A stretch of 64,000 bases of DNA from a virus (IMGVR_UViG_3300025030_000039:188878-252877); one strand, 5' to 3'; numbered from the stretch's first letter, positions 12,929 through 55,032 are shown. Notes: a model not told the origin generated them from the sequence alone. A program made the numbers and translations.

Positions 12929-12998
12929 AAATAAATCTTACTTTGTCTATTTTTTAATGAAAAGATTTACTTCTCATATTTGCAACCGTTAGGCATAA

Positions 12999-13190
12999 TT
13001 ATACTCTACCACTAAGGTAGTATTCTATTTCACTCTTACTAAAATCATCGGGCTTGTTTTTATAGTACTCCCTTAATTTTCCTTCGTGAACACCTTGTTC
13101 AAATGCCCATTTCATATCATCTAATGAATAACTACGCCTAACAAAGTATAAACGTAATGTTTTCAGTTTTTCAATCAATCTTTTTATCAT
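12999..13190 (-). CDS. hypothetical protein (63 aa)
   Basis: Track ORF. Confidence 0.4.
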   Translation of the reverse strand: MIKRLIEKLKTLRLYFVRRSYSLDDMKWAFEQGVHEGKLREYYKNKPDDFSKSEIEYYLSGRV

Positions 13191-13256
13191 ATTATTAAAT
13201 TTTGTATTTCAAATTAAGTTCAGTTAAACACTACGTTTATACTCAACTGTTATGGT

Positions 13257-13430
13257 TCATGCTAATCGCACAATTTGACGTTCATCTACTTGTGAAAAAC
13301 AATTTTCATTATATGGTTGTCCATCGTACCAAAATGAACTACAGTCCCATCTCGCAACATTCCATCCTTCGTAACTAAAATTATTAGGGCTAAATAAGTA
13401 TACCCAATAGTAACCTTCTTTTCTTTCCAT
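13257..13430 (-). CDS. small Trp/Tyr-rich hypothetical protein (57 aa), below the track cutoff
   Basis: Hand translation gives MERKEGYYWVYLFSPNNFSYEGWNVARWDCSSFWYDGQPYNENCFSQVDERQIVRLA. It looks more protein-like than the overlapping track ORF 13286-13573, which runs into a GC-richer non-coding stretch. Confidence 0.35.
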   Translation of the reverse strand: MERKEGYYWVYLFSPNNFSYEGWNVARWDCSSFWYDGQPYNENCFSQVDERQIVRLA

Positions 13431-13563
13431 TTTATTTTTATTTTAAGTTTAACAATCTGATTAATAAAGCACGAAACCATAACATTTGCTATATGTAACA
13501 CGGCTGAAAAGTCCGTACTATTTTGAGAATGTCTGCTATGCCGTGCTACACATATCATTTTCG

Positions 13564-13755
13564 TTATGAACAATGCTTAACGTCTGCCAACGCTATGTCA
13601 TGTCCACATTTTTTACATTTACCAACCATAATTAAGTGGTCGAAAGCATTGTTCATAACACCAAATAAATGAAATTTCTCTATTTCATCTATTGTCGGTA
13701 GTGCTTTTATTGTTACTTCTATACCACTTGGCAATTTTACTTTCATATTTTTCAT
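13564..13755 (-). CDS. hypothetical protein (63 aa; CKKCGH Zn-ribbon-like)
   Basis: Track ORF. Confidence 0.4.
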   Translation of the reverse strand: MKNMKVKLPSGIEVTIKALPTIDEIEKFHLFGVMNNAFDHLIMVGKCKKCGHDIALADVKHCS

Positions 13756-13913
13756 AGTCTATACCCATAGAACAAACCTTTCGCTTCGCAACACTAACAT
13801 CAGATATATTCAATTTTTTATTTGTATTATCCAAAGTTTCTTCTAAAATTTTACTCTTTTCCATTTTATTAAATTTTGTGTTAGAACTACGTATATGTAA
13901 TCATTATAGCCAA

Positions 13914-14264
13914 TTAAAGCACTGAATCATAATTGCTGCCTCTATCATCATAATCCCATTTAGAATCAAGCTCATAATATTCTTTTTTTGATTGTTGGTA
14001 TTCGATTCCTTTTTGCAATTCTTTAATTTGAGAATTAAGTTTATCTATTTTATTTTGCCTTTGCTCTGAAATGTATTTTTGTGCATCATTAACTGTTTTG
14101 AAAAATTTGTCGGAAGTCATAGATAAGCATATTCTCCAATTATACTCCGTACCAGCACTACGCAAAGACCTGACAAATGCGTAACTATCGGTTAATTTGA
14201 CGCAATCTCTTTCCCATATTCTAACTAAATCATCCTTTACAATATAAACTTTAAAAAACTCCAT
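13914..14264 (-). CDS. hypothetical protein (116 aa)
   Basis: Track ORF. Confidence 0.45.
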   Translation of the reverse strand: MEFFKVYIVKDDLVRIWERDCVKLTDSYAFVRSLRSAGTEYNWRICLSMTSDKFFKTVNDAQKYISEQRQNKIDKLNSQIKELQKGIEYQQSKKEYYELDSKWDYDDRGSNYDSVL

Positions 14265-14418
14265 ATCTATAAAATTAACTGACTATAACCCGTGGTATGG
14301 TTAGTTGCCGTGTTAGTACTAAATTTAAGCGTTACTACCCGCTTGTAATTTTCTGTAATTTGATAGGAAAGTAGCCCGCAATCGGCAACTAACCATACAA
14401 CCAACGTTATGATTAATT

Positions 14419-14598
14419 TTACTCAACCACTTCAAAGTCACCAACATTAATTGGGTGATATACACCCAACCCCTGACATATTGTAAATGTTCCATCTTCA
14501 TTAAATCCTTGATATGGCTCATCCTCTTCAAATATATCACCACTTTTAAATGTTGTCATATACCCCTCATAATCTTTTAGTAATTTAATTTTTTTCAT
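14419..14598 (-). CDS. small hypothetical protein (59 aa), below the track cutoff
   Basis: Hand translation gives MKKIKLLKDYEGYMTTFKSGDIFEEDEPYQGFNEDGTFTICQGLGVYHPINVGDFEVVE. It is preferred over the overlapping junk-like track ORF 14325-14543. Confidence 0.35.
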   Translation of the reverse strand: MKKIKLLKDYEGYMTTFKSGDIFEEDEPYQGFNEDGTFTICQGLGVYHPINVGDFEVVE

Positions 14599-14680
14599 AT
14601 TTTAATATTTAAGTAAAAAACTAACCATAACAAGGTGTATAAAACATAACCTAATTACAAATTTTAAATTAACCACGGAA

Positions 14681-14935
14681 CTATAATAGGTTATGTTTCA
14701 TACACCTAACCGTTAGCGGTAATTTAATAACAGTATTTTGAGCATCTTCATAGCTTTCAAATATCTTATTACATCTTGGACAAGAACAACAACCGTCAAC
14801 AACGGGTATAGCAAATAATTTTACTAAGTCAAATCGTAATTTTCCACATATTTCTCCTGTCATTTTTATATAATCAAGATTATCGTTATCAATTTTTACA
14901 TCACTTAATAATAAGTGTACTTCTTGTTCTGTCAT
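14681..14935 (-). CDS. hypothetical protein with CCSCPRC Zn-ribbon (84 aa)
   Basis: Track ORF. Its 3' end overlaps a CTAACGGTTAGG operator-like motif. Confidence 0.4.
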   Translation of the reverse strand: MTEQEVHLLLSDVKIDNDNLDYIKMTGEICGKLRFDLVKLFAIPVVDGCCSCPRCNKIFESYEDAQNTVIKLPLTVRCMKHNLL

Positions 14936-15290
14936 ATTTATAAATTTATTAGTTATTACTATTAATTCCGAACTGAGTATATCTGAGTGTCGTTATATGC
15001 AATAAAAATTATTTTTTGGATATTTTATATAACATTATAAATCCTATTAAAAAGTGATGGATGTTGTACAATTTGCCATTTCTATCAACTTCGCTACAAA
15101 AATATCCAAATCCTATTACAAATGGCAAAATCTTTATATTCATAATTTTTACAGTTTATAACAACAAATATAAGCAATTATTTTCATTACTTCCAAAATA
15201 AATGTTGTTTGTTAATATTAATTTTGTTCTTTTAATTAAGTTTCTACTAATTTTACTCAAATGTATATACCTGCAGACGTTAGCTGCCAT

Positions 15291-15482
15291 TTAAGGAAGC
15301 TCTGTAATAACATAGTTAATAGCCATGTTTATTTCTGTTTCAATTTTAAATCTATACCCATTAAGCTCATAAACATTTTCATCTTTCATTTTTTCTAAAC
15401 TAAACTTTTGCAATAGTTCATAAATCTGCGAAAGTGTAAGATTATTCACGTTGGCTTTTATGTTTAAGTTTATTGTCATCAT
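15291..15482 (-). CDS. hypothetical protein (63 aa)
   Basis: Track ORF. Its 3' end lies in a ~60-bp repeat shared with the 3' end of 16344-16550. Confidence 0.4.
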   Translation of the reverse strand: MMTINLNIKANVNNLTLSQIYELLQKFSLEKMKDENVYELNGYRFKIETEINMAINYVITELP

Positions 15483-15585
15483 AATAAAAAATGGTAGCTA
15501 ACATGATATATAAGCCATACAATGTTAAGGTTTATACTAATTTGATAGTGTCGGGTATGACTTATATACCCATTGTTAGAGTGCA

Positions 15586-15780
15586 TTATCTAAACACTCC
15601 TAAAAAATCTTTTAAGCAACTTTCGTTACATACGTAAAATATTTTATTTCCCTTAAAATAACATTCTGGCACTTTCATTGCTTTATGCTTTTTAATTTGT
15701 TTTTTACAACTTTCACAATTAACGCACTCTAACAAAGTATTAGCGTTATTGCCTTTCTTGCTTTCTGATAAGTTTTCCAC
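15586..15780 (-). CDS. Cys-rich hypothetical protein (64 aa; CVNCESC...C..C)
   Basis: Track ORF. Confidence 0.4.
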   Translation of the reverse strand: MENLSESKKGNNANTLLECVNCESCKKQIKKHKAMKVPECYFKGNKIFYVCNESCLKDFLGVFR

Positions 15781-15847
15781 ATTTTATATTTTAATGTTGT
15801 TAATAATTGTTTGTGATTGCGTTAACTCCAATACTCGACCATTAGGT

Positions 15848-16036
15848 TCAATCATTAATTTGTTTTGAATCTTCTATCATATTTTTGATTCGTTCTTTGA
15901 ATCTATGTTCGTATTCCTTATCAACTTCACCCAAGTCAGTTGTTTCAAGATATTTTTTAGGTAATCCTTTACCCATAGTTTCCTTGAGTTTATTTTGAAA
16001 ATACTCAAGTTCTTCGTTTGTGTTTTTATTTTCCAT
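15848..16036 (-). CDS. hypothetical protein (62 aa, charged)
   Basis: Track ORF. Preferred over the overlapping 15877-16077 frame, which has a junk-like composition. Confidence 0.4.
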   Translation of the reverse strand: MENKNTNEELEYFQNKLKETMGKGLPKKYLETTDLGEVDKEYEHRFKERIKNMIEDSKQIND

Positions 16037-16343
16037 ATTTTATATTTTTTTACAAAGGTAAAACAAATTAATGACAAAACCTAACAAATGATAAACAACA
16101 TTAAAACATTCGTTTATCTGCAACCGTTATAAAACAGTTTGCTTAAAAAAGTTTTCCACATTTTATACATCTAACCAAATAAGCACCAACCTCAAACTTT
16201 TCAAATTCGTGTTTGCAAACAGATTTTATAACAGGTATATCCAATTGCTTTTTTTGTTTTCTAAATAAACATTTTCACAATTTTTTCATCTTGTATTTCA
16301 ATTTAATTTTTACTAATTTTACGCAACTATATACCTGCAGCCT

Positions 16344-16550
16344 TTATAGTGCATTAAGGAAGTCCTCAGCATCCTTCACACTAAAGCATTTTGTGAATTT
16401 ACCTGTATTTTCATTCAACACTATTACAAAATCAACTGCTCCGTAATTAAATGCCAATTTAGTTGCTTCAATATCAAACACACATAAAGCATTATACTTT
16501 GGTATTACGGGTTGACAATCTGAATATTTTTTATCTAAAATTCTTAACAT
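16344..16550 (-). CDS. hypothetical protein (68 aa)
   Basis: Track ORF. Confidence 0.4.
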   Translation of the reverse strand: MLRILDKKYSDCQPVIPKYNALCVFDIEATKLAFNYGAVDFVIVLNENTGKFTKCFSVKDAEDFLNAL

Positions 16551-16876
16551 AGTTTTAAGTATTAACTTACTATAACAATGTGTATATGTAATGCAGCCAA
16601 TAAGTTAATTGTAAATTGAAAGTATATGCAAGACAAACCGACATCATACCGCCAGCCATTATAGCCAATTAAAAAGTAACACCATTATCATATCCAACCT
16701 CTATTGATATATTTTCAATTTCAGTATTTAATATTTGTGCTATCTTTTCTTTTAGTTCGATTATCTTGGTTACATCAATCATTACATCTTTGTAAACAGA
16801 AATTGAAATTAGTTCTTTTTCATTCATATTATCTAAGCAAACATTCTCATATACTTAACCATTATAGATAATGAAA

Positions 16877-17167
16877 TTAAATATCCTTAAAAAGTCTTCT
16901 TGGTGCTACTAATCTTCTACCATCATCACATTTAATAATATATTCACCATCAGGTTCTATAACAGTATCTAAAACATTATAAATATTACCAACTGTTATT
17001 GGAAAATTTGGGTTTGGATTTTCCGTACATAGAACTTGTTTAAGCATAAACTTATTATTAAATGTTCCATAAATATCTGAATTAACTATTTTAATTTCAC
17101 TATCTATAGCATCAGATATATGTAATTTTTCATCTTTTTTCATAATACTATTTTTATTAGTTAACAA
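16877..17167 (-). CDS. hypothetical protein (96 aa)
   Basis: Track ORF. Confidence 0.45.
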   Translation of the reverse strand: MLTNKNSIMKKDEKLHISDAIDSEIKIVNSDIYGTFNNKFMLKQVLCTENPNPNFPITVGNIYNVLDTVIEPDGEYIIKCDDGRRLVAPRRLFKDI

Positions 17168-17173
17168 AACAAC

Positions 17174-17587
17174 TTAATACGCCTTGTTATGTTTGTACGC
17201 CCTTGTTTGATTATAGAGCATTTTCAATTCGATATGCTTTTCAATATCAATGTTTCTTTGTCCTATAAAATCGAGCAATCTAATAAATACGTCTGCAATT
17301 TCATCTTCAAAAGTATCCTTTACCTGAGTTCTGAAAATTTCCTCAAACTTTATCATATCGTTTTCTTTTGCTGCCAAATCTAAATCTTCTCGAATAGTTT
17401 TGCCGTCAATAATAAATTCAGCATCATCAATTTTGGCATATTGTCCTTTTCTATCAGCTTCCAAAGCCTCAGATAATTCAGAAACCATAAGCATTAATAA
17501 AGTACCTGTTTCTCTTGGTTCGTCCCAAAAACCCTTTGCCTTTGCTCTTTCATGAAAATGTTTTGCTAATTCGTTTAAATTATTCAT
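17174..17587 (-). CDS. mazG: MazG-like all-alpha nucleoside triphosphate pyrophosphohydrolase
   Basis: The EExxE core LMLMVSELSEALEADRKG and a downstream acidic/aromatic helix are typical of phage MazG-like NTP-PPases. The gene is locally GC-richer. Confidence 0.7.
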   Translation of the reverse strand: MNNLNELAKHFHERAKAKGFWDEPRETGTLLMLMVSELSEALEADRKGQYAKIDDAEFIIDGKTIREDLDLAAKENDMIKFEEIFRTQVKDTFEDEIADVFIRLLDFIGQRNIDIEKHIELKMLYNQTRAYKHNKAY

Positions 17588-17609
17588 ATTATTTTATCTT
17601 TTAAGTTTT

Positions 17610-18026
17610 TTAAAAATTTATTACAGACAGATCTAAATAATATTGTGGATCTGCATAGTCTTGAATTTCAGAAACTAATCCATTAAATTTCATTTTAAAA
17701 TCTCTATTTATATTTATAAGGTAAACAATTCTTCCATGTGGTTTTATGGAATACCTATCTCCTTCGATATTTTCAACTGAGCGATTTTGCATTAAAACAT
17801 ATCCACCAATTGTTAATGCAATATCATCAATCATTTTTTCTTTATCCCCAATTTCTTCATGCCAAGGTATTGCAACTAAATCTAAATCTCTATTCATTGA
17901 GCCATGCACAATAATATTATATCCATATTTTAAACCTATTTCTTTTATTATTTCAAAGTAAAATGAATATAAATTTGGTTTAGCATGAATTGGTTTAATG
18001 TCTGTTATAGGATTTGTTGTATTCAA
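17610..18026 (-). CDS. hypothetical protein with possible minimal nucleotidyltransferase motif
   Basis: IIVHGSMNRDLDLV resembles the GS...[DE]hD core of the pol-beta nucleotidyltransferase superfamily. The match is weak. Confidence 0.4.
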   Translation of the reverse strand: MNTTNPITDIKPIHAKPNLYSFYFEIIKEIGLKYGYNIIVHGSMNRDLDLVAIPWHEEIGDKEKMIDDIALTIGGYVLMQNRSVENIEGDRYSIKPHGRIVYLININRDFKMKFNGLVSEIQDYADPQYYLDLSVINF

Positions 18027-18109
18027 ATATTTATTAAATAAAATTTTATTATTAAATTATATAACCAAAATTAATTATGTTTATAATTTAATCAATTTTT
18101 ATATTTTTA

Positions 18110-18135
18110 ATTTTACATACTTATAACAACTATTT
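18110..18135 (-). promoter_or_regulatory. promoter-like motif on the minus strand (TAGTTGTTATAAGTATGTAAAAT)
   Basis: Same family as 12523-12549. About 85 nt upstream of the gene starting at 18026. Confidence 0.35.
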
Positions 18136-18213
18136 TTACACTTAATCGTTAGTAACAATATAAAAATAAAGTTTGTAGAATAACCGATACAGACTCAATA
18201 TTATTAAAAGAAT

Positions 18214-18645
18214 TTAAATAAAATCATATTTCATAATTATCTTATTATCGATTTCTTTAACAACAGTCCATCCCATTTTTAAATGATATTCTTTTGCAAA
18301 AACTGTATCTAAAAATATAGTTTTATATCCTAATAATTTTGCATATTCAAATCTTTTTTCAGTTAACATCAATCCATATCCATTACCTCTATATTCTGGT
18401 TCAACCCATAACAATAAATTCCAGGGAGATATAGTCCTATCTATTTCATTAATAGTATCAAATAATCCACAACCTATAGGTTTATCATCTATTATCAATA
18501 CATAACAAACTGAATCAGATTCATTATTTAAATACCTTCTAATCTCACTTAAACTATATTCATCATCAACTTGCCAACGTTCTTTCATAATAGATGAAAC
18601 ATAATTAATATACATGTGAGTTAATTTTTCTATTTTAATTTCCAT
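18214..18645 (-). CDS. GNAT-family N-acetyltransferase
   Basis: VLIIDDKPIGCGLF and the WVEPEYRGNGYG (R/QxxGxG/A) acetyl-CoA-binding motif, followed by YAKLLGYKTIFLDT. Confidence 0.7.
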   Translation of the reverse strand: MEIKIEKLTHMYINYVSSIMKERWQVDDEYSLSEIRRYLNNESDSVCYVLIIDDKPIGCGLFDTINEIDRTISPWNLLLWVEPEYRGNGYGLMLTEKRFEYAKLLGYKTIFLDTVFAKEYHLKMGWTVVKEIDNKIIMKYDFI

Positions 18646-20066
18646 TCAAATTTATAATTGCCTGTTCCAAAACATCTATAATATCCCTTATCATGCATTA
18701 TCTCCACTTCAGTCATCAAGGAATCTGCTCCTTCTTTTACCAATTTATCTTTACGATATTTAAACCTATTCTCCCTAATTCCATCTACTACCCACCAATA
18801 ATTCAAACCAGTATGCACTATATATTCAAACCCTAATTTTGTATATAAATTATCTTGCTCATCAACCGTCCAATCACAATCTGCATAACTTACTACTCGT
18901 TCAGGTTTATACTCTTTAATAAAATATTTAAATAAACGACTGGCTCCACCAACAACCGAAGTATTTAATTTATTAGCAAACCGTAAAAGCTCCCATTCAT
19001 TTTCTTTAGCAACTTGATTTAAATTTTTACGTAAGGATCCGAAGGTCATTAATGATACTAACTCACCTTCATAATATAAACCTAATTTAATAGCAGCATT
19101 AGTATTGCCCTGTAAATGGTTCCTATTTAAAAATTCTCTACTATCACCAGAATTAACGGTTTTAATTACACATTTTCTAGCATACACTTTATCAGTAGAT
19201 AAATTTAATAAATTCTTTATTCTTGATTTTACTATATCTCTTTTGTTATACCAAACATCTTCCCATATATGTATTAAATTAATTCCCAATTCTTTGCATC
19301 TATTACTTTTATCTATATGATATTCTTTAGGTTTATTAAATTCATTATGCCAATATACTCCATTATGTTCAAATGCTATATTTTTATCTTCAATATAAAT
19401 ATCAAGTTCTCTATTTTTTAATTCTTTTTTAGAATTAATTCTAAATGGTTTTAAATAAATGTCTTTTATCCAATCTATTAATTCTATTTCAGAATTACTT
19501 TTTCCGTGATTAGGATTACATTTTAAACATGGATTAATATTTATATTTATTCTTCTATATAATAATTGAGAATCTATTATTGATATACTTTTACATTCAA
19601 CACATTCTATTTTTATTTTTTGTTGATCATCCCATTCTATTATTTTAATTTTATCTTTTAATTTTTCTTTAGCAAAAGGAAAATAATATTTATCTTTAAA
19701 ATAATTTGATTGTGTTATATGTTGTACTCCATATCTTTTTAGAACTGTTATTCTTGTTCTTTTTTCTTTTAAAACTATTGCACATTTTCTACTACAGCTA
19801 GAAGAATAACCAGGCATTATACCCATAAATTTAGATGAAGGTATTTTATTACCACATACTTCACATTTTGGAATTTCAGTTTTATCATGTAATGCATGAT
19901 AAAGTTTTTCTTTAAAAGACGTTAATTTTAGATTATTATTTATAGAATATTTTTCTATTTCTAATAATAGATTAGGATAATTATTTTTAAAAAATTCAAT
20001 TCTAGTAGTACTAGATGTAAGTTTTCCGTTTTTTATTAATATTTTATTTAAATCATTTGATAACAT
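18630..20066 (-). CDS. three-part fusion protein: N-terminal Cys clusters, DUF559/Vsr-like (PD-(D/E)XK-type) endonuclease core, C-terminal GNAT-like fold
   Basis: CEVCGNKIP...CSRKC Zn-ribbon-like clusters. ELDIYIEDKNIAFEHNGVYWHN....LGINLIHIWEDVW matches the DUF559 and very-short-patch-repair-like nuclease pattern. The C-terminal GLYYEGELVSLMTFGS...ELLRFA...VVGGASRLFKYFI...YTKLGF looks acyltransferase-like. Confidence 0.5.
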   Translation of the reverse strand: MLSNDLNKILIKNGKLTSSTTRIEFFKNNYPNLLLEIEKYSINNNLKLTSFKEKLYHALHDKTEIPKCEVCGNKIPSSKFMGIMPGYSSSCSRKCAIVLKEKRTRITVLKRYGVQHITQSNYFKDKYYFPFAKEKLKDKIKIIEWDDQQKIKIECVECKSISIIDSQLLYRRINININPCLKCNPNHGKSNSEIELIDWIKDIYLKPFRINSKKELKNRELDIYIEDKNIAFEHNGVYWHNEFNKPKEYHIDKSNRCKELGINLIHIWEDVWYNKRDIVKSRIKNLLNLSTDKVYARKCVIKTVNSGDSREFLNRNHLQGNTNAAIKLGLYYEGELVSLMTFGSLRKNLNQVAKENEWELLRFANKLNTSVVGGASRLFKYFIKEYKPERVVSYADCDWTVDEQDNLYTKLGFEYIVHTGLNYWWVVDGIRENRFKYRKDKLVKEGADSLMTEVEIMHDKGYYRCFGTGNYKFEWKLK

Positions 20067-20104
20067 TTAATTATATGGTTAATTATTATTATGTTTAATA
20101 AAAT

Positions 20105-20983
20105 TTAAACATAATCACCTTCCTGTATTTCAGGTAACTCTCCCATCTTATTTCTATACAATAATGTAATCATCGGTAAATTTACCCATCTTAAATCCTT
20201 CTCAACTAATTGATTTTTAATACGTTCAAGAATGTCCCTGTCACTTCCCCGAGGTTCGCTGCGTACTGGTGAAGTAAGAAATTGCTCTCTTACATTTCTA
20301 TATCTTAAATCCTTAAATTCCTTCAAATCCCAACAAAATGTTGAATGCCAACTTTCTGTTATATGAGAAATATTATTCCCCCCTATATGTTTAACAACTC
20401 CTCTTTCTGGTCTACAATATGTATCTGTTCCTGTTTTATATCTTTTTATTATAGCTGTCGAAGAAAAGAATTTTGCTTTAGGATATCTAGTTATTGCCTT
20501 AGCCATATATTCTAGATGGTTAGGAAGCCATATATCATCGTGATCTAAACGACAAATAAAATTTACACCATCCCTTACTGCTTTATCAATAGCTATATTT
20601 GCAGCAACATCAGACCCTGAATGCCAAAGATCTGCCCCCCTGAATCGGATCCTTTCACCTGGCAGTTCCAGATTTTCATATACGATTTTTGAGTATTCGA
20701 ATGATTCAACTAAAGGCTTGATTTCATTATCACTTTCATAGTCATCACCCATTAGATAAATTTTGTAGTTTTGGTATGATTGGTTTTTGATAGATTGAAG
20801 AGCTTCTTGTAATCTCATAGGAGTAGTACCATCGCTTCTTTTATAGGTAGCAACTATAATACCAAATCTTATATTTGTTCTGTGTTCTATTTTTTTGAAT
20901 TTATCTATTTTATCCGATAAATCATTTTGTTTATTTTGATCTTCTTGATTAAAATTTTGAAAATTTTCTAATAAGGTGTCCAT
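20105..20983 (-). CDS. family 2 glycosyltransferase (GT-A fold)
   Basis: FGIIVATYKR, the QSYQNYKIYLMGDDYE acidic motif and the DHDD DxD-type motif. Confidence 0.7.
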   Translation of the reverse strand: MDTLLENFQNFNQEDQNKQNDLSDKIDKFKKIEHRTNIRFGIIVATYKRSDGTTPMRLQEALQSIKNQSYQNYKIYLMGDDYESDNEIKPLVESFEYSKIVYENLELPGERIRFRGADLWHSGSDVAANIAIDKAVRDGVNFICRLDHDDIWLPNHLEYMAKAITRYPKAKFFSSTAIIKRYKTGTDTYCRPERGVVKHIGGNNISHITESWHSTFCWDLKEFKDLRYRNVREQFLTSPVRSEPRGSDRDILERIKNQLVEKDLRWVNLPMITLLYRNKMGELPEIQEGDYV

Positions 20984-21363
20984 AAAAATATTATTTGAAT
21001 ATATATTTGGAATTTTAATTTTATTTTAAACTTTTTTATTATATTTAAATTTAATAATATTTAGTTATATGAATCAAAATTTAAAAATATTAATAAAATG
21101 AGAACAATAAAGGCACAGAAGACTTAATTACTGGTATAATTATTGAAATGAAAAACGAAGACAACTTTGAAAGAAAAGCTGCACAGCGAATAATCGAAGC
21201 ACTAACAGATGAAAATAATTTGAATATACCCCCAGTTATCGTTTCAATTTGCGATGGTCTTTTGTTTGAATGTACTGATAGAGAAACAATACATAACGAA
21301 TGATGCGTTTATTCTCGTTGCCGTATTAGGAGCAGAAATTATTAACCATAAAATAAACACAAT

Positions 21364-21591
21364 ATGAAAAAAGGAACTTCAAATAAGCAGAAAGCAGGCA
21401 ATAGAATTAAACGCAATGTTATAAAATTGTTGCCCGACCGGAGAATTTATGATGAATACACATTTATAATTGGAAGTATGCAACACGGAACATCCTACAT
21501 GGGTAAATCGGACGAAACTATAAAACACCACGACAATATAATCGCATGGCTTAAAAAACGTAGAGAGGAGTTTAAGGGCAATGTTTTATAA
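21364..21591 (+). CDS. hypothetical basic protein (75 aa)
   Basis: Track ORF in a locally GC-richer stretch. Confidence 0.35.
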   Translation: MKKGTSNKQKAGNRIKRNVIKLLPDRRIYDEYTFIIGSMQHGTSYMGKSDETIKHHDNIIAWLKKRREEFKGNVL

Positions 21592-21664
21592 CGGACGGCG
21601 GTTGGCTTTCGTTGCCGATGCTCGATTAACGACAAATGATTATTAATAGTAAAAATTTAAAATT

Positions 21665-21892
21665 ATGCAGACAGATTCTAAAAACCAAATAGGCAATGAA
21701 GCTAATACCATGTTATGTGAAGTGTATTTTGTAAAAAAAGGTAAAAAGTTTATGAAAGGACATGGATATAGCACATTAAAAGGATATAAATTTAGTTGGA
21801 CTTTCAATAAAAACGAAGCAAGAAAAATGGAATATAGCACAGCAAATAGTTTAGCAATTTCAAGCGGTGGTGTATTGAAACAACAACTATAA
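21665..21892 (+). CDS. hypothetical protein (75 aa)
   Basis: Track ORF. Preferred over the antisense 21643-21900 frame, which is F/L-rich and junk-like. Confidence 0.35.
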   Translation: MQTDSKNQIGNEANTMLCEVYFVKKGKKFMKGHGYSTLKGYKFSWTFNKNEARKMEYSTANSLAISSGGVLKQQL

Positions 21893-21939
21893 ATGGTCAA
21901 TTAGTAGAAATTCCACGCTACGACCCTCTTTATTATTGT

Positions 21940-22006
21940 GGCTAACGGTTGCAAATATAAAACGTTGCAACATGAATGTAATTAAATGAAACAAAACTTG
22001 AAAAAA
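21940..22006 (+). repeat. ~65-bp element, inverted copy of 12590-12655; contains CTAACGGTTGC and GTTGCAAC
   Basis: GGCTAACGGTTGCAAATATAAAACGTTGCAACATGAATGTAATTAAATGAAACAAAACTTGAAA. It lies about 90 nt upstream of the RlmN-like gene. Confidence 0.55.
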
Positions 22007-22090
22007 TGCTCGAATAACCACGGATGCCCAACTGTTTTATACCATATGTTAGCGGTAGTGATTTTTTAACTTATTAATATTTAACGATTT

Positions 22091-22978
22091 ATGAAAACAA
22101 AAAGATTTGATAGTTCAGAAGGTAATGTTTGGAAATATGTATTTGACTTTGAAAATGCAGTTGCCGAAGCGGTACTTTACAAATATGAAAACTTTTACAA
22201 AAGGACTGTACTTTGCGTGAGTGTGCAAAGTGGATGCCCTGTTGGTTGCAAATTTTGCGGAACTGGCAAAAAGTTTATTAGAAACCTTACAAACTTAGAA
22301 ATAGTTGCACAGGTTAAACATTGCTTAAAAGACATGAATATTGAAAATGTTAATTCGGCTAGTGATCGTTTCCAAATAATGTTTATGAGTATGGGTGAAC
22401 CTACTTTAAATATTGATAATGTAATAACGGCAATAAAGGATTTAAACAACTTATATCCAAATGCTGAATTACTTATTTCAACTATGGGGGCAAAAAACAA
22501 TACCGCTTTTGAAAAACTGTTAAAAGTAAGTATTGAAATACAAAAGGTTGGTTTGCAATTTTCAGTACATGAAGCATTTGAAGAAAAAAGAAACCAATTA
22601 ATATCATTTAAAAATAAATTGAATTTACGTGAAATGCGTGATTTTGGCATTGAGTGGAATAGGCAAACAAAACGCCCTGTATATGTGAATTATTGCATTG
22701 GAGAAACAAACCAAAGCAATGAAGAGATGGATAGGCTTAAAGACTTATTTAGCCCTGCTCTTTTCAATTTTACATTTTCGGTTATTTGCTCTTCTGATGA
22801 AAACATGAAAGATAAAGGATATAGAGAACTGAACAAGATAAACACAATTACTTCATCATTTGTTGAATGTGGTTATAATGTTCGAGTTTTCGACCCTGCT
22901 GGTCAAGATGATATTGGGGGCGGGTGCGGACAATTATGGTATGTACAAAACTGGATGCGTGACCATCATTACCGCTAA
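22091..22978 (+). CDS. RlmN/Cfr-family radical SAM RNA methyltransferase-like protein
   Basis: SVQSGCPVGCKFCGTG is the CX3CX2C radical-SAM motif in an RlmN-like context. FMSMGEPTLN and the C-terminal DIGGGCGQLWY resemble the conserved RlmN/Cfr Cys motifs. Confidence 0.8.
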   Translation: MKTKRFDSSEGNVWKYVFDFENAVAEAVLYKYENFYKRTVLCVSVQSGCPVGCKFCGTGKKFIRNLTNLEIVAQVKHCLKDMNIENVNSASDRFQIMFMSMGEPTLNIDNVITAIKDLNNLYPNAELLISTMGAKNNTAFEKLLKVSIEIQKVGLQFSVHEAFEEKRNQLISFKNKLNLREMRDFGIEWNRQTKRPVYVNYCIGETNQSNEEMDRLKDLFSPALFNFTFSVICSSDENMKDKGYRELNKINTITSSFVECGYNVRVFDPAGQDDIGGGCGQLWYVQNWMRDHHYR

Positions 22979-23095
22979 CATAAATATATAAATAATAATA
23001 TATAATTAATTAAATATGAATGCCTTAGGACAATCAATGTTAATAAAATTTAAAAAATATTTAATGTTGAAAAATTATTTAATTTTATAAAATAA

Positions 23096-28742: not shown

Positions 28743-28760
28743 TTCTAAATTTTTATTTTT

Positions 28761-28782: not shown

Positions 28783-28799
28783 TTTTAAAATAAAAAAAT

Positions 28800-33472: not shown

Positions 33473-33492
33473 TTTTAATTATATAAAAATTA

Positions 33493-43168: not shown

Positions 43169-43345
43169 AATGATTGAAATAGGAAAAATTTATACTTATA
43201 AGGATGGTAGATCTGTTATAGTTATACAAAAAAGTGATAAACAATTAAGAGCAGAAGTATCAGATGATATAGAAAACAAATGGAATCCATTTTGGATATA
43301 CTATTCTGATTTAATTTTTATACTTTAAATAAAATTTTTAAATTT

Positions 43346-43367
43346 AAAACTTTTTTATTATATTTAC
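43346..43367 (+). promoter_or_regulatory. class A promoter-like motif (AAAACTTTTTTATTATATTTAC)
   Basis: It sits about 30 nt before the ATG at 43399. Confidence 0.45.
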
Positions 43368-43398
43368 ATATTATTTAATTTAAATCTGTTATTATACT

Positions 43399-47312: not shown

Positions 47313-47321
47313 ATTTTAAAA

Positions 47322-47368
47322 TTACTTTAAATCTTATTTTTATTTTAAACCCTTTGTTATTATATTTA
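47322..47368 (+). repeat. 47-bp direct repeat, copy 1, containing a class B promoter-like motif (CCTTTGTTATTATATTTA)
   Basis: Identical to 47984-48030 (TTACTTTAAATCTTATTTTTATTTTAAACCCTTTGTTATTATATTTA). Confidence 0.6.
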
Positions 47369-47388
47369 TTTTAAATAATAATAATTAT

Positions 47389-47958: not shown

Positions 47959-47983
47959 GTAAGAAAATAATATCGATTATTAA

Positions 47984-48030
47984 TTACTTTAAATCTTATT
48001 TTTATTTTAAACCCTTTGTTATTATATTTA
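47984..48030 (+). repeat. 47-bp direct repeat, copy 2, containing a class B promoter-like motif
   Basis: Identical to 47322-47368. It sits about 28 nt before the ATG at 48056. Confidence 0.6.
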
Positions 48031-48055
48031 CCTATAATTATTAAAATAAATTTTT

Positions 48056-48371: not shown

Positions 48372-48935
48372 ATGAATTTTACCAATTTTAATAAAAGAAT
48401 TTTTTCAAAATACCCTGGTATCAATTGGATTGGTACTAGTGGTACATTGAAAATTGATGAAAAGAGAATGGTAACTATTACTATAAATGATCCTGCAATT
48501 CATCAACATTATACTTCATATAAATGTGAAATTAAAAATATTTTACTCGGTAATAGTATAGCATTTAAATCTTTTAATTTTAATGAACATTTAGTTATTG
48601 ATGATAATAGAAAATCAGACAGTAATGGTATTAAATTAATTTCTTATGTTAAAATTGATTGGTATAATGCTCCTAAAAATGAAACACAAATTGCTGATAT
48701 TATTTTTAATTGGATTAATCAATATAAAATAGTTGAAGATAAAAAGAAATTTATTGTTTTAACTGATGAAGGAACTACAATGTCTCCTAATGGGAAAGAT
48801 GTTGAAAATTTACAAGTTTTAGCAATATTAGAATCAAAAGATAAAGAATTAGCGGAACTTGAATTTAAGCATGATTATAAAAAAATGCTAAAAGACGGTA
48901 AATGGAAAAACTATAAAATTCACGAATTAATTTAA
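48372..48935 (+). CDS. hypothetical protein (187 aa)
   Basis: Track ORF. Confidence 0.45.
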   Translation: MNFTNFNKRIFSKYPGINWIGTSGTLKIDEKRMVTITINDPAIHQHYTSYKCEIKNILLGNSIAFKSFNFNEHLVIDDNRKSDSNGIKLISYVKIDWYNAPKNETQIADIIFNWINQYKIVEDKKKFIVLTDEGTTMSPNGKDVENLQVLAILESKDKELAELEFKHDYKKMLKDGKWKNYKIHELI

Positions 48936-51482: not shown

Positions 51483-51749
51483 TTATACAAACTTTAAAAT
51501 AGTATTGTAAAATTCTATTTAAAATATTTTTTTCTTAAAATATTTGTTAATATATTTATTTAATAATTAATATTAATACAATAACATGGTACATTCATAT
51601 AAAAATTACAAATCTAGTTTAAAGATAAGTATTAAAAATAATAAATCCAATACTTAATTAAAAACAATATTACCGATTTTTATATTAATATCTTTGTTAT
51701 TAAATTTACCTATTAATTTAAAATATTTATTAACTTTAATTTTTTAATC

Positions 51750-52631
51750 ATGTCAAACAAAAACAAGCAAACTGGTGCAAAAAAGAATTTAAACGAAAAT
51801 GATAATTCTGATGCCCAAACTGTTGCTACTGATGTAGTTAACAATGTAGAAAACAAAGAAGAAGCTGTCGAAAATAACGAAGAAGTTGTTGTAGAAGATA
51901 TGCAAATTCCTGAAATTCCTACTGCTGAAAAAGCAAAGAAAAGAATTATTAAACCTTTAGTAAAAGGTATTGGTTTTAATGATTTTGGAACATGGTTCAC
52001 TCGTCCACGAAAAGATGGTGATAAAGATGTTAATGGAAAAGATATTCCAACAGACAGAGTATTTGTTCTTTCATTAGAGCCACATGACATCGCTAAAATG
52101 GATTTACCTGCAGCTCCACTTATTTATGATCCAGCAGGAAAAGATGATTCCGGTAATGCTATTTTAATTGCTTACAAAGTTCCTCAATTCAGAAATTCTG
52201 AAGGTGGTGTAGCGTTCAAAAATGCTGAAAACAAAACAGAAACTCATCATCAGTATAAACAAATTACTACTTTAGTAGAAGATTTGAACGAAACTACTGA
52301 AGTAAGAAGAGGCTGGGTTGGTTATACTAAACTTCCACTTTCTCAAACTGATTTGGAAACTATCGCAAAAGAAAAAGAAGTTAAAGAAGCAGCAGCTAAA
52401 AAGAAAGCTGAAGAAGCAGCAGCCAAAAAAGTAGAAAGAGAAGCAGCAGCTAAAAAGAAAGCCGAAGAAGCAGCAGCTAAAAAGGAAGAAGCCGATAAAA
52501 AAGCAGCAGTAGATGCAATTAACAAAGCTCAAGCTGCAACACAAACTGAAGGTCAGAGTGTTGAAAATCCTGAAGTAGCTATTGATGGTGCTCCAGCAAA
52601 AGTAAAGAAAAATCAAGAAGCAACTGTATAG
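51750..52631 (+). CDS. Ala/Lys/Glu-rich protein with an internal 9-aa (27-bp) tandem repeat; GC-richer than its surroundings
   Basis: Track ORF with four tandem EAAAKKKAE-type units at 52386-52493. The antisense track ORFs here are artefacts of the repeat. Confidence 0.55.
   Translation: MSNKNKQTGAKKNLNENDNSDAQTVATDVVNNVENKEEAVENNEEVVVEDMQIPEIPTAEKAKKRIIKPLVKGIGFNDFGTWFTRPRKDGDKDVNGKDIPTDRVFVLSLEPHDIAKMDLPAAPLIYDPAGKDDSGNAILIAYKVPQFRNSEGGVAFKNAENKTETHHQYKQITTLVEDLNETTEVRRGWVGYTKLPLSQTDLETIAKEKEVKEAAAKKKAEEAAAKKVEREAAAKKKAEEAAAKKEEADKKAAVDAINKAQAATQTEGQSVENPEVAIDGAPAKVKKNQEATV
52386..52493 (+). repeat. 4 x 27-bp tandem repeat (GAAGCAGCAGCTAAAAAGAAAGCTGAA), coding
   Basis: Four consecutive 27-mers with 1-5 substitutions each. 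Confidence 0.8.
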
Positions 52632-52648
52632 TTACTTTTTAAAATTTT

Positions 52649-53685: not shown

Positions 53686-53722
53686 TCTTTTTTAAGTAAG
53701 AATAAATAATTTTATCTTATAA

Positions 53723-53747
53723 ATATTTGTTATTATTTTTATATTAA
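53723..53747 (+). promoter_or_regulatory. class C promoter-like motif, second copy
   Basis: Identical to 52786-52810. It sits 15 nt before the ATG at 53763. Confidence 0.45.
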
Positions 53748-53762
53748 ATAAAAAATTAATCT

Positions 53763-53960
53763 ATGTTTCCTACTAATTTTAAAAACAAAAAGATATCAAT
53801 AATATTTAAAATATTATTTTTTATTTCTATATTTGTAACTATAAGTTATAGAATCATAATGCCTGAATTTATAATAATATCAAATGATATCTATTTATGG
53901 TTATTTTGTTTAACTTCAATAACATTATTTTTTATAACATACTCATTTAAAACAAATTAA
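53763..53960 (+). CDS. small membrane protein (two TM segments)
   Basis: Track ORF, hydrophobic. Confidence 0.35.
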   Translation: MFPTNFKNKKISIIFKILFFISIFVTISYRIIMPEFIIISNDIYLWLFCLTSITLFFITYSFKTN

Positions 53961-54007
53961 TACGAAAATAACACTTAATCAATTTATAAATTTAAAACAA
54001 TTTAATT

Positions 54008-54223
54008 ATGAAAAGAACATTTATTTATTTAGTAGCTATTTTAATGATAGCAGGTTGCTGCAACCCAAATGAAGCAAATTCACCATGTACTCCTGGTGAT
54101 ACAATACAAGTTTCTAATAGTGAATCTGAAAACTTAGATGAAACTATTAAAGAAGGTGAATCTGAAAATATCGATTCAGTAAGTAATGATGGCTATGCAG
54201 CCGATGAAAAATATTCAGAATGA
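54008..54223 (+). CDS. acidic lipoprotein (MKRTFIYLVAILMIAGCC)
   Basis: Signal peptide plus lipobox Cys, then an acidic S/E-rich sequence. Confidence 0.4.
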   Translation: MKRTFIYLVAILMIAGCCNPNEANSPCTPGDTIQVSNSESENLDETIKEGESENIDSVSNDGYAADEKYSE

Positions 54224-54435
54224 AAAATATTTGGACAATATTAATAATAGGAGCATATATTATATATGTTACATCAGCATTTTCATCTACTGCATCATTA
54301 CCAGTATCTTCACCTGTTAAAATTGTATCAAGTATTGATTTTACAGTTTATAAGATAATAGATGGTTCAAATGTAGTCTATATTACTTGTTCAACTTCAG
54401 ATAATATTAATGTATCAATGGCTGTTGTTAAATAA
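54220..54435 (+). CDS. secreted or membrane small protein (71 aa)
   Basis: Track ORF with an N-terminal hydrophobic segment. Confidence 0.35.
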   Translation: MKNIWTILIIGAYIIYVTSAFSSTASLPVSSPVKIVSSIDFTVYKIIDGSNVVYITCSTSDNINVSMAVVK

Positions 54436-54443
54436 TTACATTA

Positions 54444-54476
54444 AAAAGAATCATAAATTTATGGTTCTTTTTTTGT
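54444..54476 (+). terminator. rho-independent terminator (AAAGAATCATAAA/TTTATGGTTCTTT then TTTTG)
   Basis: 13-bp stem with one G-U pair, followed by a U-run, 9 nt after the stop at 54435. Confidence 0.55.
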
Positions 54477-54674
54477 CTGTAATTTTTTATAATCAAAATT
54501 ATTTTGATAACAGGATATTTTTATAATAGGGATATTAAAAATTTAATCCCTTTGTATATTCCGGTAATACTTGGTATACGCGATATTCAGGATAATAATA
54601 CCTTATATCCAATAATTACATTAACCCTAGTTAAATATTGTATAAAAATACTTTAGATAAAAATTTTTATTTTT

Positions 54675-54695
54675 AAACCTTTGTTATTAAATTTA
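54675..54695 (+). promoter_or_regulatory. class B promoter-like motif (AAACCTTTGTTATTAAATTTA) with no protein-coding gene downstream
   Basis: Same family as 47347 and 48009. The next ~430 nt lack any ORF longer than 25 codons. Confidence 0.4.
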
Positions 54696-54699
54696 TAAA

Positions 54700-55032
54700 A
54701 TTAAAAATTATAAAATAGTTCATTGAAATGAAACATTTGTGATCCTAACGGTTGGTATTTTAATATAATAAGTATTAAAATATGATACAATATGAAAATA
54801 TTGGACAGTGCGAAACTGAATGAGTTAGGCAATATAAACATCAAATTGATTTTGCTGTGGATGAATATTGAAGCTGTTGACTGTCATGAAAAGATAAATG
54901 ATAAAAATTGCTTACACACCTAATTGTAATATTGGGTATGATTTTTAATTTTTAATAATTATCGCTAAAGTGTAAATGTTCCATATACTATGTATTAAGG
55001 TCGTTTAGCGATAGTTATTTTTATTAATTTTG
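54700..55032 (+). ncRNA. candidate non-coding RNA (~330 nt) between a promoter-like motif and a hairpin/T-run
   Basis: An ORF-free interval bounded upstream by the class B motif. Downstream is a 10-bp perfect inverted repeat, TATCGCTAAA (54960-54969) and TTTAGCGATA (55004-55013), followed by TTATTTTTATTAATTTT. It contains a CCTAACGGTTGG operator-like motif at 54744-54755. Confidence 0.3.

What the first reader, a model, noticed from the sequence alone, without database searches (positions are those of the whole stretch)
12982..54755. Recurrent GC-containing 11-mer CTAACGGTTGC in intergenic regions, always oriented with local transcription: a candidate operator
In an AT-rich background this 11-mer (core AACGGTT) occurs at least five times: 12982-12993 (minus), 14705-14717 (minus), 16120-16130 (minus), 21942-21952 (plus) and 54744-54755 (plus). 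All lie in non-coding spacers or at gene ends, and all point in the direction of the surrounding genes. Two copies sit inside the ~65-bp inverted element pair and one at the start of the ORF-free candidate ncRNA. That is far more than chance for a GC-containing 11-mer and suggests a DNA-binding regulator site or a conserved transcript 5'-leader element.
Basis: seen in the sequence. Interest (0 to 1): 0.55.

Follow-up and report, generated by a model that had tools for sequence, protein, structure and literature searches.

The report
Integron-like gene-cassette sites in a huge phage
The recurring 11-letter motif is one foot of a family of hairpin recombination sites that separate small genes like integron cassettes, part of a cassette-shuffling system that many large uncultured phages carry and that I found described nowhere; here its recombinase gene has decayed.

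Summary
The exact 11-mer occurs twice. Four of the five listed sites (12982, 14706, 16120, 21942) belong to one real family; the fifth (54745) scores as background. The 8-mer core is not enriched genome-wide.

The motif is not an operator. It comprises the invariant 5' foot (TAAC), a one-sided bulge (GGTT) and the first stem bases of imperfect hairpins of 48-130 nt. Each hairpin ends in T-GTTA. At least 13 lie between small co-oriented ORFs at 12.2-18.2 kb (minus strand) and one at 21.9-22.1 kb (plus strand).

In related low-GC viral contigs, same-strand arrays of up to 18 such sites end at a 268-aa Xer/IntI-like tyrosine recombinase gene: 378 sites lie upstream on the same strand, against 25 elsewhere.

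The bases flanking each ORF are inverted repeats (GTTAnnnnn...nnnnnTAAC). Identical cassettes occur in different arrays, with breakpoints exactly at TAAC. These are hallmarks of integron cassettes.

It differs from classical integrons in three ways. The recombinase lacks the IntI-specific region. The hairpin travels with the downstream ORF. ORFs point towards the recombinase.

In this window only 19-24-codon stubs of the recombinase gene remain, at both ends of an 11.4-kb island. The array is therefore an orphan, comparable to a CALIN (a cluster of attC sites lacking an integrase).

The parts
11688..23093 (.). Whole island. Two divergent arrays of small ORFs separated by hairpin sites, GC 27-30% against about 22% around it, bounded by a 120-nt inverted repeat.
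   Evidence: Composition. Inverted repeat I1, 11688-11807/22974-23093, 92% complementary. All covariance-model hits in the genome fall inside it.
12913..12991 (-). TAAC 12991-12988, bulge GGTT, 22-bp stem with 3 G.T pairs, T-GTTA 12916-12913.
   Evidence: Covariance model 83.5 bits, but this element was in the model's training set.
14628..14715 (-). TAAC 14715-14712, 21-bp stem, GTTA 14631-14628. It overlaps the 3' end of ORF 14681-14935.
   Evidence: Covariance model 79 bits, also a training-set element.
16082..16129 (-). TAAC 16129-16126, GTTA 16085-16082.
   Evidence: Covariance model 30.6 bits, E 2e-4. Same class as the GATGATAAACAAT mini-site common in related contigs.
21943..22051 (+). 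Its 3' flank GTTAGCGGT pairs with ACCGCTAAC at 22971-22979, across the radical-SAM gene.
   Evidence: Covariance model 29.7 bits.
12221..12322 (-). Hairpin site, the ORF-free 'ncRNA-like' stretch. Stem of about 22 bp.
   Evidence: Covariance model 47.2 bits.
12535..12650 (-). Hairpin site with foot ATAAC and bulge GATT. Its 5' 71 nt repeat the 21933-22003 arm.
   Evidence: Covariance model 38.4 bits.
13139..13252 (-). Hairpin site. The loop holds the listed ATG of ORF 12999-13190.
   Evidence: Covariance model 52.8 bits.
13480..13566 (-). Hairpin site. The TAA of its TAAC is the stop codon of ORF 13564-13755.
   Evidence: Covariance model 52.4 bits.
14286..14409 (-). Hairpin site with a 19-bp G+C-rich stem.
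   Evidence: Covariance model 42.4 bits.
15499..15578 (-). Hairpin site. Its 5' flank GCACTCTAAC pairs with GTTAGAGTGC at about 15733-15724, across ORF 15586-15780.
   Evidence: Covariance model 39.1 bits.
15730..15844 (-). Decayed site with foot mutated to TAAT.
   Evidence: Covariance model 24.3 bits, E 0.12. Sequence.
16573..16661 (-). Site with foot mutated to TAAT (CTATAAT-GGCT-stem).
   Evidence: Covariance model 35.7 bits, E 1e-5. Sequence.
15159..15282 (-). Decayed or composite site. It keeps the 5' foot GCAGCTAACG and the 3' end TATATTTGTTGTTATA but has no good stem.
   Evidence: Covariance model only 14.5 bits.
18124..18151 (-). Minimal or fused site: TAAC and GTTA only 20 nt apart. 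It marks the upstream limit of the minus-strand array.
   Evidence: Covariance model 23.3 bits, E 0.007. Sequence.
11706..11810 (-). Array terminus. Terminal foot GTTGCTAAC (11810-11802), a 36-nt A+T-rich attI-like spacer, then a 19-codon stub of the recombinase gene (ATG 11765, stop 11706).
   Evidence: The stub MNALGQSMLKKLKKYLMLK resembles the N-termini of the intact recombinases. The foot is the exact complement of GTTAGCAAC of site 12221-12322.
22971..23090 (+). Second array terminus, in inverted orientation. Foot ACCGCTAAC (its TAA is the stop of the radical-SAM ORF), the same spacer, then a 24-codon recombinase stub (23016-23090).
54745..54755 (+). Not a member of the family; most likely a chance 8-mer match.
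   Evidence: Covariance model 6.7 bits, E 4.6, at background level. It lacks the invariant T at -7. Its putative 3' partner lies inside ORF 54792-54923.

Best explanation
CTAACGGTTGC is the start of an attC-like recombination site. Each site is an imperfect hairpin with this layout: (n11)-TAAC-G(G/T)TT-[13-25-bp stem]-loop-[stem]-T-GTTA-(n11). The sites separate small ORFs in an integron-like cassette array. In relatives that still carry the enzyme, a 268-aa Xer/IntI-like tyrosine recombinase is encoded at the end of the array.

Shown here: (1) the hairpins are conserved in structure, with many compensatory changes, and only the ORF-sense strand folds well; (2) each ORF is flanked by inverted repeats, GTTA+11 nt ... 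11 nt+TAAC; (3) the mobile unit is 'hairpin plus the ORF downstream of it', and the breakpoints between shared cassettes lie exactly in TAAC.

Inferred by analogy with integrons: the recombinase binds the folded sense strand at the TAAC/GTTA box and at a conserved TAT box in the stem. It cuts in TAAC and excises a circular cassette. In that circle the two flanks close into a 15-bp box with a fixed T.G pair. The cassette is then re-inserted at the array end next to the recombinase gene (TAAC-TATTATATAT...).

In this window the recombinase gene is reduced to 19-24-codon stubs at both ends of the island. The array is therefore an orphan (CALIN-like). It could move only if a co-infecting phage supplied the enzyme. 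Several sites have already decayed (TAAT feet, missing arms).
For: Structure:
- Folds of every spacer.
- In an unbiased test of all 3AT+1GC 4-mer feet, TAAC...GTTA gives 18 strong hairpins, the next best foot gives 9, and the reverse orientation gives 0.
- RNAalifold on 42 elements: 25 pairs, 18 with compensatory changes, foot TAACG/TGTTA invariant.
- G.T outnumbers A.C mismatches 200 to 25 under strand-symmetric scoring, and the G is on the 5' arm in 179 of 200.

Local family: all 15 covariance-model hits in the 462-kb genome lie in window 12.2-22.1 kb.

Arrays elsewhere:
- The 17-mer led to low-GC viral contigs with 10-19 same-strand sites 300-500 bp apart.
- Recombinases sit at the array ends.
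- In 79 further loci, 378 sites lie on the same strand upstream of the recombinase. Only 12 lie downstream and 13 on the other strand.

Cassette logic:
- The 3' flank of site i is the reverse complement of the 5' flank of site i+1. This is 5/5 in 78 of 115 pairs and in 200 of 302 pairs, against about 1.8/5 for own or random pairs.
- The pairing extends 11 nt, with a T.G at position 7 in 289 of 418 pairs.
- The rule holds 8-9 of 9 at six junctions in the window.
- In 12 of 12 informative pairs of homologous cassettes the upstream hairpin is kept and the downstream one is not.
- Identity breaks exactly at TAAC on both sides.

Window termini: the terminal foot, AT-rich spacer and recombinase N-terminal stub are duplicated in inverted orientation. 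No intact recombinase of this family exists in the genome; there is only a fragment covering residues 36-111 at record 48578-48820.
Against: - No recombination has been observed directly. Everything is comparative.
- The window has no enzyme, and few of its cassettes have close DNA homologues in the recombinase-bearing arrays.
- The recombinase scores below the curated cut-off for integron integrases (151 against 265 bits) and lacks about 47 residues of the IntI-specific region.
- The site geometry, a one-sided bulge with G.T pairs, differs from the symmetric unpaired spacers and extrahelical bases of attC.
- G.U-compatible stems on the transcribed strand would also fit an RNA-level role.
- I did not independently check that the IMG/VR contigs are viral.
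Confidence: 0.8

Rival explanations
1. PeSL-like regulatory cassettes. Each hairpin would be a terminator joined to a promoter for the next gene, and gene shuffling would occur by ordinary homologous recombination between similar modules, as in T4-type phages.
For: The sites lie between small accessory ORFs in a variable, compositionally distinct region. The hairpin travels with the ORF downstream of it, as a promoter would. In one site class the 3' arm contains TATATTTG, which matches the Bacteroidota -7 box TAnnTTTG as I recall it. PeSLs are described as composite terminator/promoter motifs that mediate modular shuffling and mini-circles (PMC2839356, PMC4122927).
Against: TAnnTTTG is present in only 50 of 523 sites. 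Homologous exchange does not predict that the 11 nt on either side of each ORF are inverted repeats, nor that breakpoints fall exactly in the invariant TAAC. It also does not predict that arrays end at a tyrosine recombinase gene in nearly every locus. The hairpins have 20-75-nt loops and no T-run.
Confidence: 0.1
2. A purely RNA-level element: a processing site of the RNase III type, a stabiliser or an attenuator in polycistronic early transcripts.
For: G.U-compatible pairs lie almost only on the transcribed strand. There are three nearly fixed G.U positions. The layout of lower stem, bulge and upper stem recalls the RNase III sites of phage T7 (my own knowledge).
Against: It does not explain the recombinase association, the flank complementarity across 300-500-nt ORFs or the discrete cassettes shared between unrelated arrays. 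Loops are long and variable. No Rfam family matches.
Confidence: 0.05
3. An operator for a phage or host transcription regulator.
For: The core AAC-G-GTT is a short dyad. The sites are intergenic and co-oriented with the genes.
Against: There is no genome-wide enrichment. The sites have no constant distance to gene starts or to the promoter-like repeats; TAAC lies 17 to 110 nt from them. The conserved unit is the whole hairpin with a distant partner foot, not the 11-mer.
Confidence: 0.03

Closest known systems
Integron attC sites, gene cassettes and CALINs (Cury et al. 2016, PMC4889954)
   Same: - Arrays of small, mostly ORFan genes are separated by imperfect hairpins that conserve structure rather than sequence.
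- The ends carry an invariant ...AAC / GTT....
- Sites in arrays are chimeric: the outer flank belongs to the neighbouring cassette.
- The crossover lies in the conserved foot.
- Only one strand folds well.
- A tyrosine recombinase gene lies at one array end, with its start next to the array.
- The hairpin sits on the recombinase-distal side of its ORF.
- Orphan arrays exist without the enzyme.
   Different: - The recombinase lacks the IntI-specific region and fails the curated IntI cut-off.
- The foot and stem are separated by a 3-4-nt bulge on one arm only, not by paired unpaired spacers.
- Strand bias is achieved by G.T pairs rather than by extrahelical bases.
- ORFs read from the hairpin towards the recombinase, so the hairpin is 5' of its ORF. 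No Pc-type promoter could drive them.
- The carriers are large phages, not bacterial chromosomes or plasmids.
CALINs and integrons reported in phage genomes (Qi et al. 2023, PMC9892861)
   Same: Clusters of attC-type sites without an integrase occur in virulent phages, including a marine Flavobacteriia phage (Polaribacter phage P12002L).
   Different: That study reports 17 CALINs in 10,705 genomes, each with at least two predicted attC sites, all detected with the standard attC models. It reports no phage-specific recombinase family. Here the arrays reach 18 or more sites per 10 kb and have their own recombinase, present in 194 viral contigs.
PeSL promoter-terminator cassettes of T4-type phages (PMC2839356, PMC4122927)
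   Same: Short conserved stem-loop modules flank accessory ORFs in hyperplastic regions of large phages and are associated with gene shuffling and mini-circles.
   Different: PeSLs act by homologous recombination and contain a sigma-70-type promoter. Here there is a dedicated tyrosine recombinase, a fixed crossover point and inverted flanks around each ORF. A recognisable promoter box is present in only about 10% of sites.
Xer recombinases acting on folded single-stranded DNA, as in CTX phage integration at dif (my own knowledge)
   Same: A Xer-type tyrosine recombinase uses a hairpin folded from one DNA strand as its substrate.
   Different: That system integrates a whole phage at one chromosomal site using host enzymes. 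It has no cassette arrays.

Membership tests
Integron (as defined by IntegronFinder) | An integrase that matches the tyrosine-recombinase profile PF00589 | tested here: met
   In the relatives only: PF00589 at 124-131 bits plus Phage_int_SAM_4. The window itself holds only 19-24-codon stubs.
Integron (as defined by IntegronFinder) | An integrase that carries the IntI-specific region near patch III (PMC4889954) | tested here: not met
   TIGR02249 scores 151 bits against a cut-off of 265, split into two stretches.
Integron attC site | An imperfect inverted repeat with conserved terminal ...AAC and GTT... (R box) and a variable middle | tested here: met
   TAAC and GTTA are invariant in 143 sites. 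Eighteen of 25 pairs show compensatory changes. Lengths are 48-229 nt, falling in discrete classes.
Integron attC site | R and L boxes separated by unpaired central spacers on both arms, with extrahelical bases (PMC4889954 Figure 2 legend; details from my own knowledge) | tested here: not met
   The 5' spacer is 4-5 nt (GGTT in 44 sites). The 3' spacer is a single T in 111 of 143 sites, and that T pairs with the G after TAAC. Strand bias comes from G.T pairs instead.
Integron gene cassette | Chimeric sites in arrays: the outer half of each R box belongs to the adjacent cassette, with the crossover in the conserved triplet | tested here: met
   Flank complementarity across ORFs. Breakpoints of shared cassettes lie exactly at TAAC.
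Integron gene cassette | The ORF is followed by its own attC and transcribed away from the integrase from a common promoter | tested here: not met
   The upstream hairpin travels with the ORF in 12 of 12 informative pairs. ORFs and the recombinase gene share a strand, with the array upstream of the recombinase.
Integron attC site | Detected by the attC covariance model of IntegronFinder or HattCI | not testable with these tools
   That model is not available here, and Rfam holds no attC family.
CALIN | Two or more attC sites close together with no integron integrase nearby | tested here: inconclusive
   There are 13 or more sites within 6 kb and no intact recombinase in the 462-kb genome. Whether the sites count as attC depends on the untestable feature above.
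PeSL | A host-type early promoter joined to a terminator stem-loop | tested here: inconclusive
   A Bacteroidota-type -7 box occurs in only 50 of 523 sites. There is no T-run after the stems. Transcript ends were not available.
Operator | A short double-stranded site at a fixed position relative to promoters and recurring across a regulon | tested here: not met
   No genome-wide enrichment. Distance to promoter-like repeats and to start codons varies.

The most novel reading that the evidence does not exclude
Many large low-GC phages, probably of Bacteroidota hosts, carry a self-contained 'phage integron'. It would consist of a Xer-like recombinase without the IntI insertion that excises and inserts cassettes (hairpin plus ORF) through a folded sense strand. 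Co-infecting phages would then share a common pool of small accessory genes, possibly anti-defence genes. The window would hold a fossil of this system, whose recombinase gene was cut down at both array ends.
Probability: 0.55. Interest if true: 0.9.

Novelty: new variant of a known kind. Interest (0 to 1): 0.8.

Why it matters
Integrons are regarded as bacterial devices. In phages only a few short orphan attC clusters have been reported (PMC9892861).

The evidence here points to a separate lineage of the same principle, widespread and phage-borne. It has its own recombinase clade: 194 viral contigs carry it, and thousands of metagenomic protein clusters are labelled merely 'XerD'. Its arrays reach 18 or more cassettes.

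This would matter in three ways:
- It would explain how hyperplastic regions of jumbo phages acquire and shuffle ORFan genes.
- It would provide a second, independent example of recombination through folded single-stranded hairpins, useful for working out what is essential in the IntI/attC mechanism.
- It would give a simple sequence rule (TAAC...T-GTTA with inverted flanks) for delimiting thousands of mobile phage genes for functional screens.

For this window, it replaces 'candidate operator' with a defined, testable structure. It also explains the inverted repeats, the 'ncRNA-like' spacer and the GC-rich island together.

Tried and rejected
- Rfam and tRNA scans of the window found nothing.
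- Stop-codon recoding was checked and rejected; the standard code fits.
- Ranking TAAC...GTTA pairs by raw constrained folding energy was uninformative because it favours long segments. I replaced it with stem scoring and a comparison of all possible feet.
- Relatives found through the neighbouring ClpP gene (80 loci, 54-67% identity) carry no such hairpins and are too distant.
- An exact 27-mer from the 14.7-kb site has no match in IMG/VR.
- About 18 of the 44 hits to the 17-mer are an unrelated conserved gene in 43%-GC contigs, that is, chance matches.
- A scan of 185,579 species genomes with an 18-mer from the commonest site gave chance hits only, apart from four short MAG contigs. I therefore found no evidence for a bacterial chromosomal home, though only with that one pattern.
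- A regex search for tyrosine recombinases in the genome found none. A profile search later found only a fragment.
- The Bacteroidota -7 box as a general feature of the 3' arm was rejected: 10% of sites.
- Cultured phages hold neither the arrays nor a close recombinase; the best match is 40% identity, in Cellulophaga phage Ingeline.
- Pfam and PHROGs searches of the cassette ORFs gave almost only unknowns. The exceptions are a radical-SAM enzyme, a pyrophosphatase-like protein and weak zinc-finger hits.
- Literature searches found no description of this system.

Full report
**Source and context.** The window equals record LR756500.1 (uncultured phage, 462,018 bp, unannotated) from position 388,074 onward. 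The one difference is a 124-bp indel at window 55,487. I fetched the whole record so that genome-wide tests could be run. GC is about 23%, and the standard genetic code fits.

**Checking the observation.**
- The exact 11-mer occurs twice. The other three listed sites have 1-2 mismatches.
- The shared 8-mer TAACGGTT occurs 7 times in the window against 1.0-1.7 expected. It ranks only 45th of 15,010 8-mers.
- In the genome it occurs 14 times against 5-12 expected.
- K-mer statistics alone therefore do not carry the finding.
- What is unusual is the clustering: four co-oriented copies at gene ends lie within 9 kb, in a stretch of raised GC (27-30%).

**What the motif belongs to.** I laid out every spacer of the 11-23 kb region from the stop codon onward. 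This showed (C/A)TAACG a few bases after, or overlapping, most stop codons.
- Folding shows that each TAAC is the 5' foot of a long imperfect hairpin whose 3' foot is T-GTTA.
- An unbiased census of strong inverted repeats in the genome puts 6 of 41 in a 3-kb part of this region.
- A comparison of all 4-mers of the same composition as possible feet singles out TAAC...GTTA: 18 hairpins against 9 for the runner-up and 0 for the reverse orientation.
- Strong members exist only at window 12.2-15.6 kb.

**Relatives.** The 17-mer CTAACGGTTGCAAATAT has 44 exact matches in IMG/VR. About 18 are an unrelated gene in 43%-GC contigs. The remaining matches in low-GC (25-33%) contigs, many of them 100-360 kb long, mostly show the same element between unrelated flanks.

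These contigs carry dense arrays in which all sites lie on one strand. For example, 18 sites lie in 8 kb of L093, 12 in L111 and 12 in L129.

Logos from 143 sites give this consensus: A-T-K-n4-M-TAAC-G-K-T-T-[n4-RTAT...]...[...ATAY-n4]-T-GTTA-K-n5-G-K-T. Lengths fall in classes of 48, 78-92, 112-130 and about 195 nt.

An alignment of 42 sites gives a consensus of 25 pairs. Eighteen have compensatory changes and almost none are broken. The foot TAACG/TGTTA is invariant, the 3-4-nt bulge is on the 5' arm only, and there are three nearly fixed G.U positions.

A covariance model built from this alignment finds 15 hits at E<=1 in the 462-kb genome, all at window 12.2-22.1 kb. Two window sites were in the training set, so their scores are inflated; the others were not.

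**Evidence for cassette recombination.**
1. *Recombinase link.* A 265-268-aa tyrosine recombinase gene lies at the end of the arrays in L094, L103, L114 and L129, on the ORF strand, with its start next to the array. A search with an alignment of these four found 194 viral contigs. In the 79 new loci, 378 sites lie on the same strand upstream of the gene. Twelve lie downstream and 13 on the other strand, although more sequence was searched downstream.
2. *Chain rule.* The 5 nt after GTTA of one site are the reverse complement of the 5 nt before TAAC of the next site. The match is perfect in 78 of 115 pairs and, in the independent loci, in 200 of 302 pairs. A site's own flanks, or random pairs, match about 1.8 of 5. 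The complementarity runs 11 nt, with a T.G pair at position 7 in 289 of 418 cases and never an A.C. Each ORF is thus bracketed by GTTA+11 ... 11+TAAC. In a circularised cassette these flanks would close the hairpin into a 15-bp box.
3. *Shared cassettes.* Among 75 pairs of homologous cassette bodies, the 12 informative ones all keep the upstream hairpin and not the downstream one. Some of these pairs come from near-identical contigs, leaving about 8 independent cases. In eight examples, several 100% identical between samples, similarity starts exactly at TAAC of the upstream hairpin and ends at TAAC(G) of the next.
4. *Strand bias.* Stem mismatches are G.T 200 times and A.C 25 times under strand-symmetric scoring, with the G on the 5' arm in 179 cases. 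Only the ORF-sense strand can therefore fold well.

**The window's array.** The chain rule holds along the minus strand:

| 3' flank of site | 5' flank of next site | Match |
|---|---|---|
| 13480-13566: GTTATGGTT | AACCATAAC | 9/9 |
| 13139-13252: GTTAGGCGT | ATGCCTAAC | 8/9 |
| 12913-12991: GTTATAGAT | ATCTATAAC | 9/9 |
| 12535-12650: GTTATAAGT | ACTTATAAC | 9/9 |
| 12221-12322: GTTAGCAAC | GTTGCTAAC (terminal foot) | 9/9 |

On the plus strand, GTTAGCGGT pairs with ACCGCTAAC across the radical-SAM gene, 9/9.

Both arms of the 120-nt inverted repeat that bounds the island consist of three parts: the terminal foot, a 36-nt A+T-rich spacer, and the first 19-24 codons of a recombinase gene. The stub MNALGQSML(I/K)K(F/L)KKYLMLK can be compared with MNIKSKSTLEKFEKVLRFKNY in L114. 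In the relatives the same junction reads TAAC-TATTATATAT...ATG.

A profile of the four recombinases finds nothing else in the genome except a fragment (residues 36-111) at record 48,578-48,820. Several sites are decayed: TAAT feet at 16661 and 15844, and missing arms at 15282 and 18151. The window therefore holds an orphan, partly eroded array.

**Comparison with integrons.**
- *What matches:* hairpin sites conserved in structure, AAC/GTT feet, chimeric sites, a crossover in the foot, single-strand bias, a recombinase gene with its start at the array end, the hairpin on the recombinase-distal side of its ORF, and mostly ORFan cassettes. Definitions are taken from PMC4889954.
- *What does not match:* the recombinase's best curated match is XerA_Arch at 184 bits (cut-off 220). 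The integron-integrase model gives 151 bits against a cut-off of 265, in two pieces. The bulge is one-sided. ORFs read from their hairpin towards the recombinase.

I therefore describe it as working like an integron but do not file it as one.

CALINs in phages are known, but as rare short clusters found with the standard attC model (PMC9892861). I found no paper describing this recombinase-array system. Public annotation calls the protein XerD.

PeSLs of T4-type phages are the nearest phage analogue, but they rest on homologous recombination and a promoter. Only 10% of the sites here carry a Bacteroidota-type -7 box.

**Host.** A Bacteroidota (Flavobacteriia) host is suggested by two results. 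Gene 11815-12183 shares 71% nucleotide identity with Cellulophaga phage phi18:3. The nearest cultured integrases come from Cellulophaga and Polaribacter phages.

**Limits.**
- No experiment or read-level data were available, so recombination is inferred, not observed.
- Model E-values are rough.
- The viral nature of the IMG/VR contigs was not verified.
- Whether the standard attC model detects these sites could not be tested.

Noticed in passing
window 1754-1808, 21014-21075, 28734-28788, 33424-33478, 43311-43381, 47313-47385, 47975-48047, 51657-51723, 54648-54702, 55517-55589, 59960-60016: A second, much more abundant repeat family (consensus about AAAMYTTTKTTATTATATTTAC) lies shortly upstream of genes outside the island. 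It looks like the phage's own promoter type and is absent from most of the cassette island.
   Followed up: no
LR756500.1 48578-48820 (-), outside the window (locus L001): A start-less fragment matches residues 36-111 of the array recombinase (46% identity, E 1e-16). It follows small ORFs and a CTAAACG-like remnant. It may be the relic of a second array about 350 kb from the island.
   Followed up: partly
window 55487: The window lacks 124 bp that are present in LR756500.1 at record position ~443,560. Otherwise the two are identical wherever compared (positions 1-55,486, and sampled 50-mers beyond the indel). The window therefore comes from a slightly different version or population variant.
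   Followed up: partly
window 23096-23746 (+): Leucine-rich-repeat protein gene with a 69-nt tandem periodicity, immediately after the right-hand recombinase stub.
   Followed up: no
window 52345-52521 (+): A 27-nt periodic coding repeat rich in AAG/GCA codons, giving a Lys/Ala/Glu low-complexity protein segment.
   Followed up: no
window 11815-12183 (-): The last cassette ORF (122 aa, phrog_33653) is 71% identical at the DNA level to a hypothetical gene of Cellulophaga phage phi18:3. This is a hint to host range and to gene flow with small Flavobacteriia phages.
   Followed up: partly
window 18630-20066 (-): A 478-aa protein with weak, below-cut-off matches to a restriction-endonuclease-like domain (REase_MTES_1575) and to the Mom family. 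It sits just upstream of the array, next to a GNAT acetyltransferase and a family-2 glycosyltransferase.
   Followed up: no
loci L093, L094, L096, L103, L110, L111, L112, L129, L140, L142, L186: One 48-nt mini-site (TAAC-GTCC-GATGATAAACAAT...GTTGTTTATCATT-T-GTTA) recurs nearly unchanged in many contigs and several times per array. It is the commonest class and a possible minimal substrate.
   Followed up: partly
loci L091, L100, L101, L107, L108, L113, L117-L120, L122, L123, L126-L128, L130, L131, L134: An unrelated group of about 43%-GC viral contigs shares the 17-mer inside a strongly conserved stretch (ctaagtttccttagaatcc...). This appears to be a chance match within one widespread phage gene.
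   Followed up: no
window 12590-12660 and 21933-22003: Two hairpin sites share their first 71 nt (89%) but have different 3' halves and different neighbours. Exchange can therefore also occur inside hairpins, which the foot-crossover model does not explain.
   Followed up: partly
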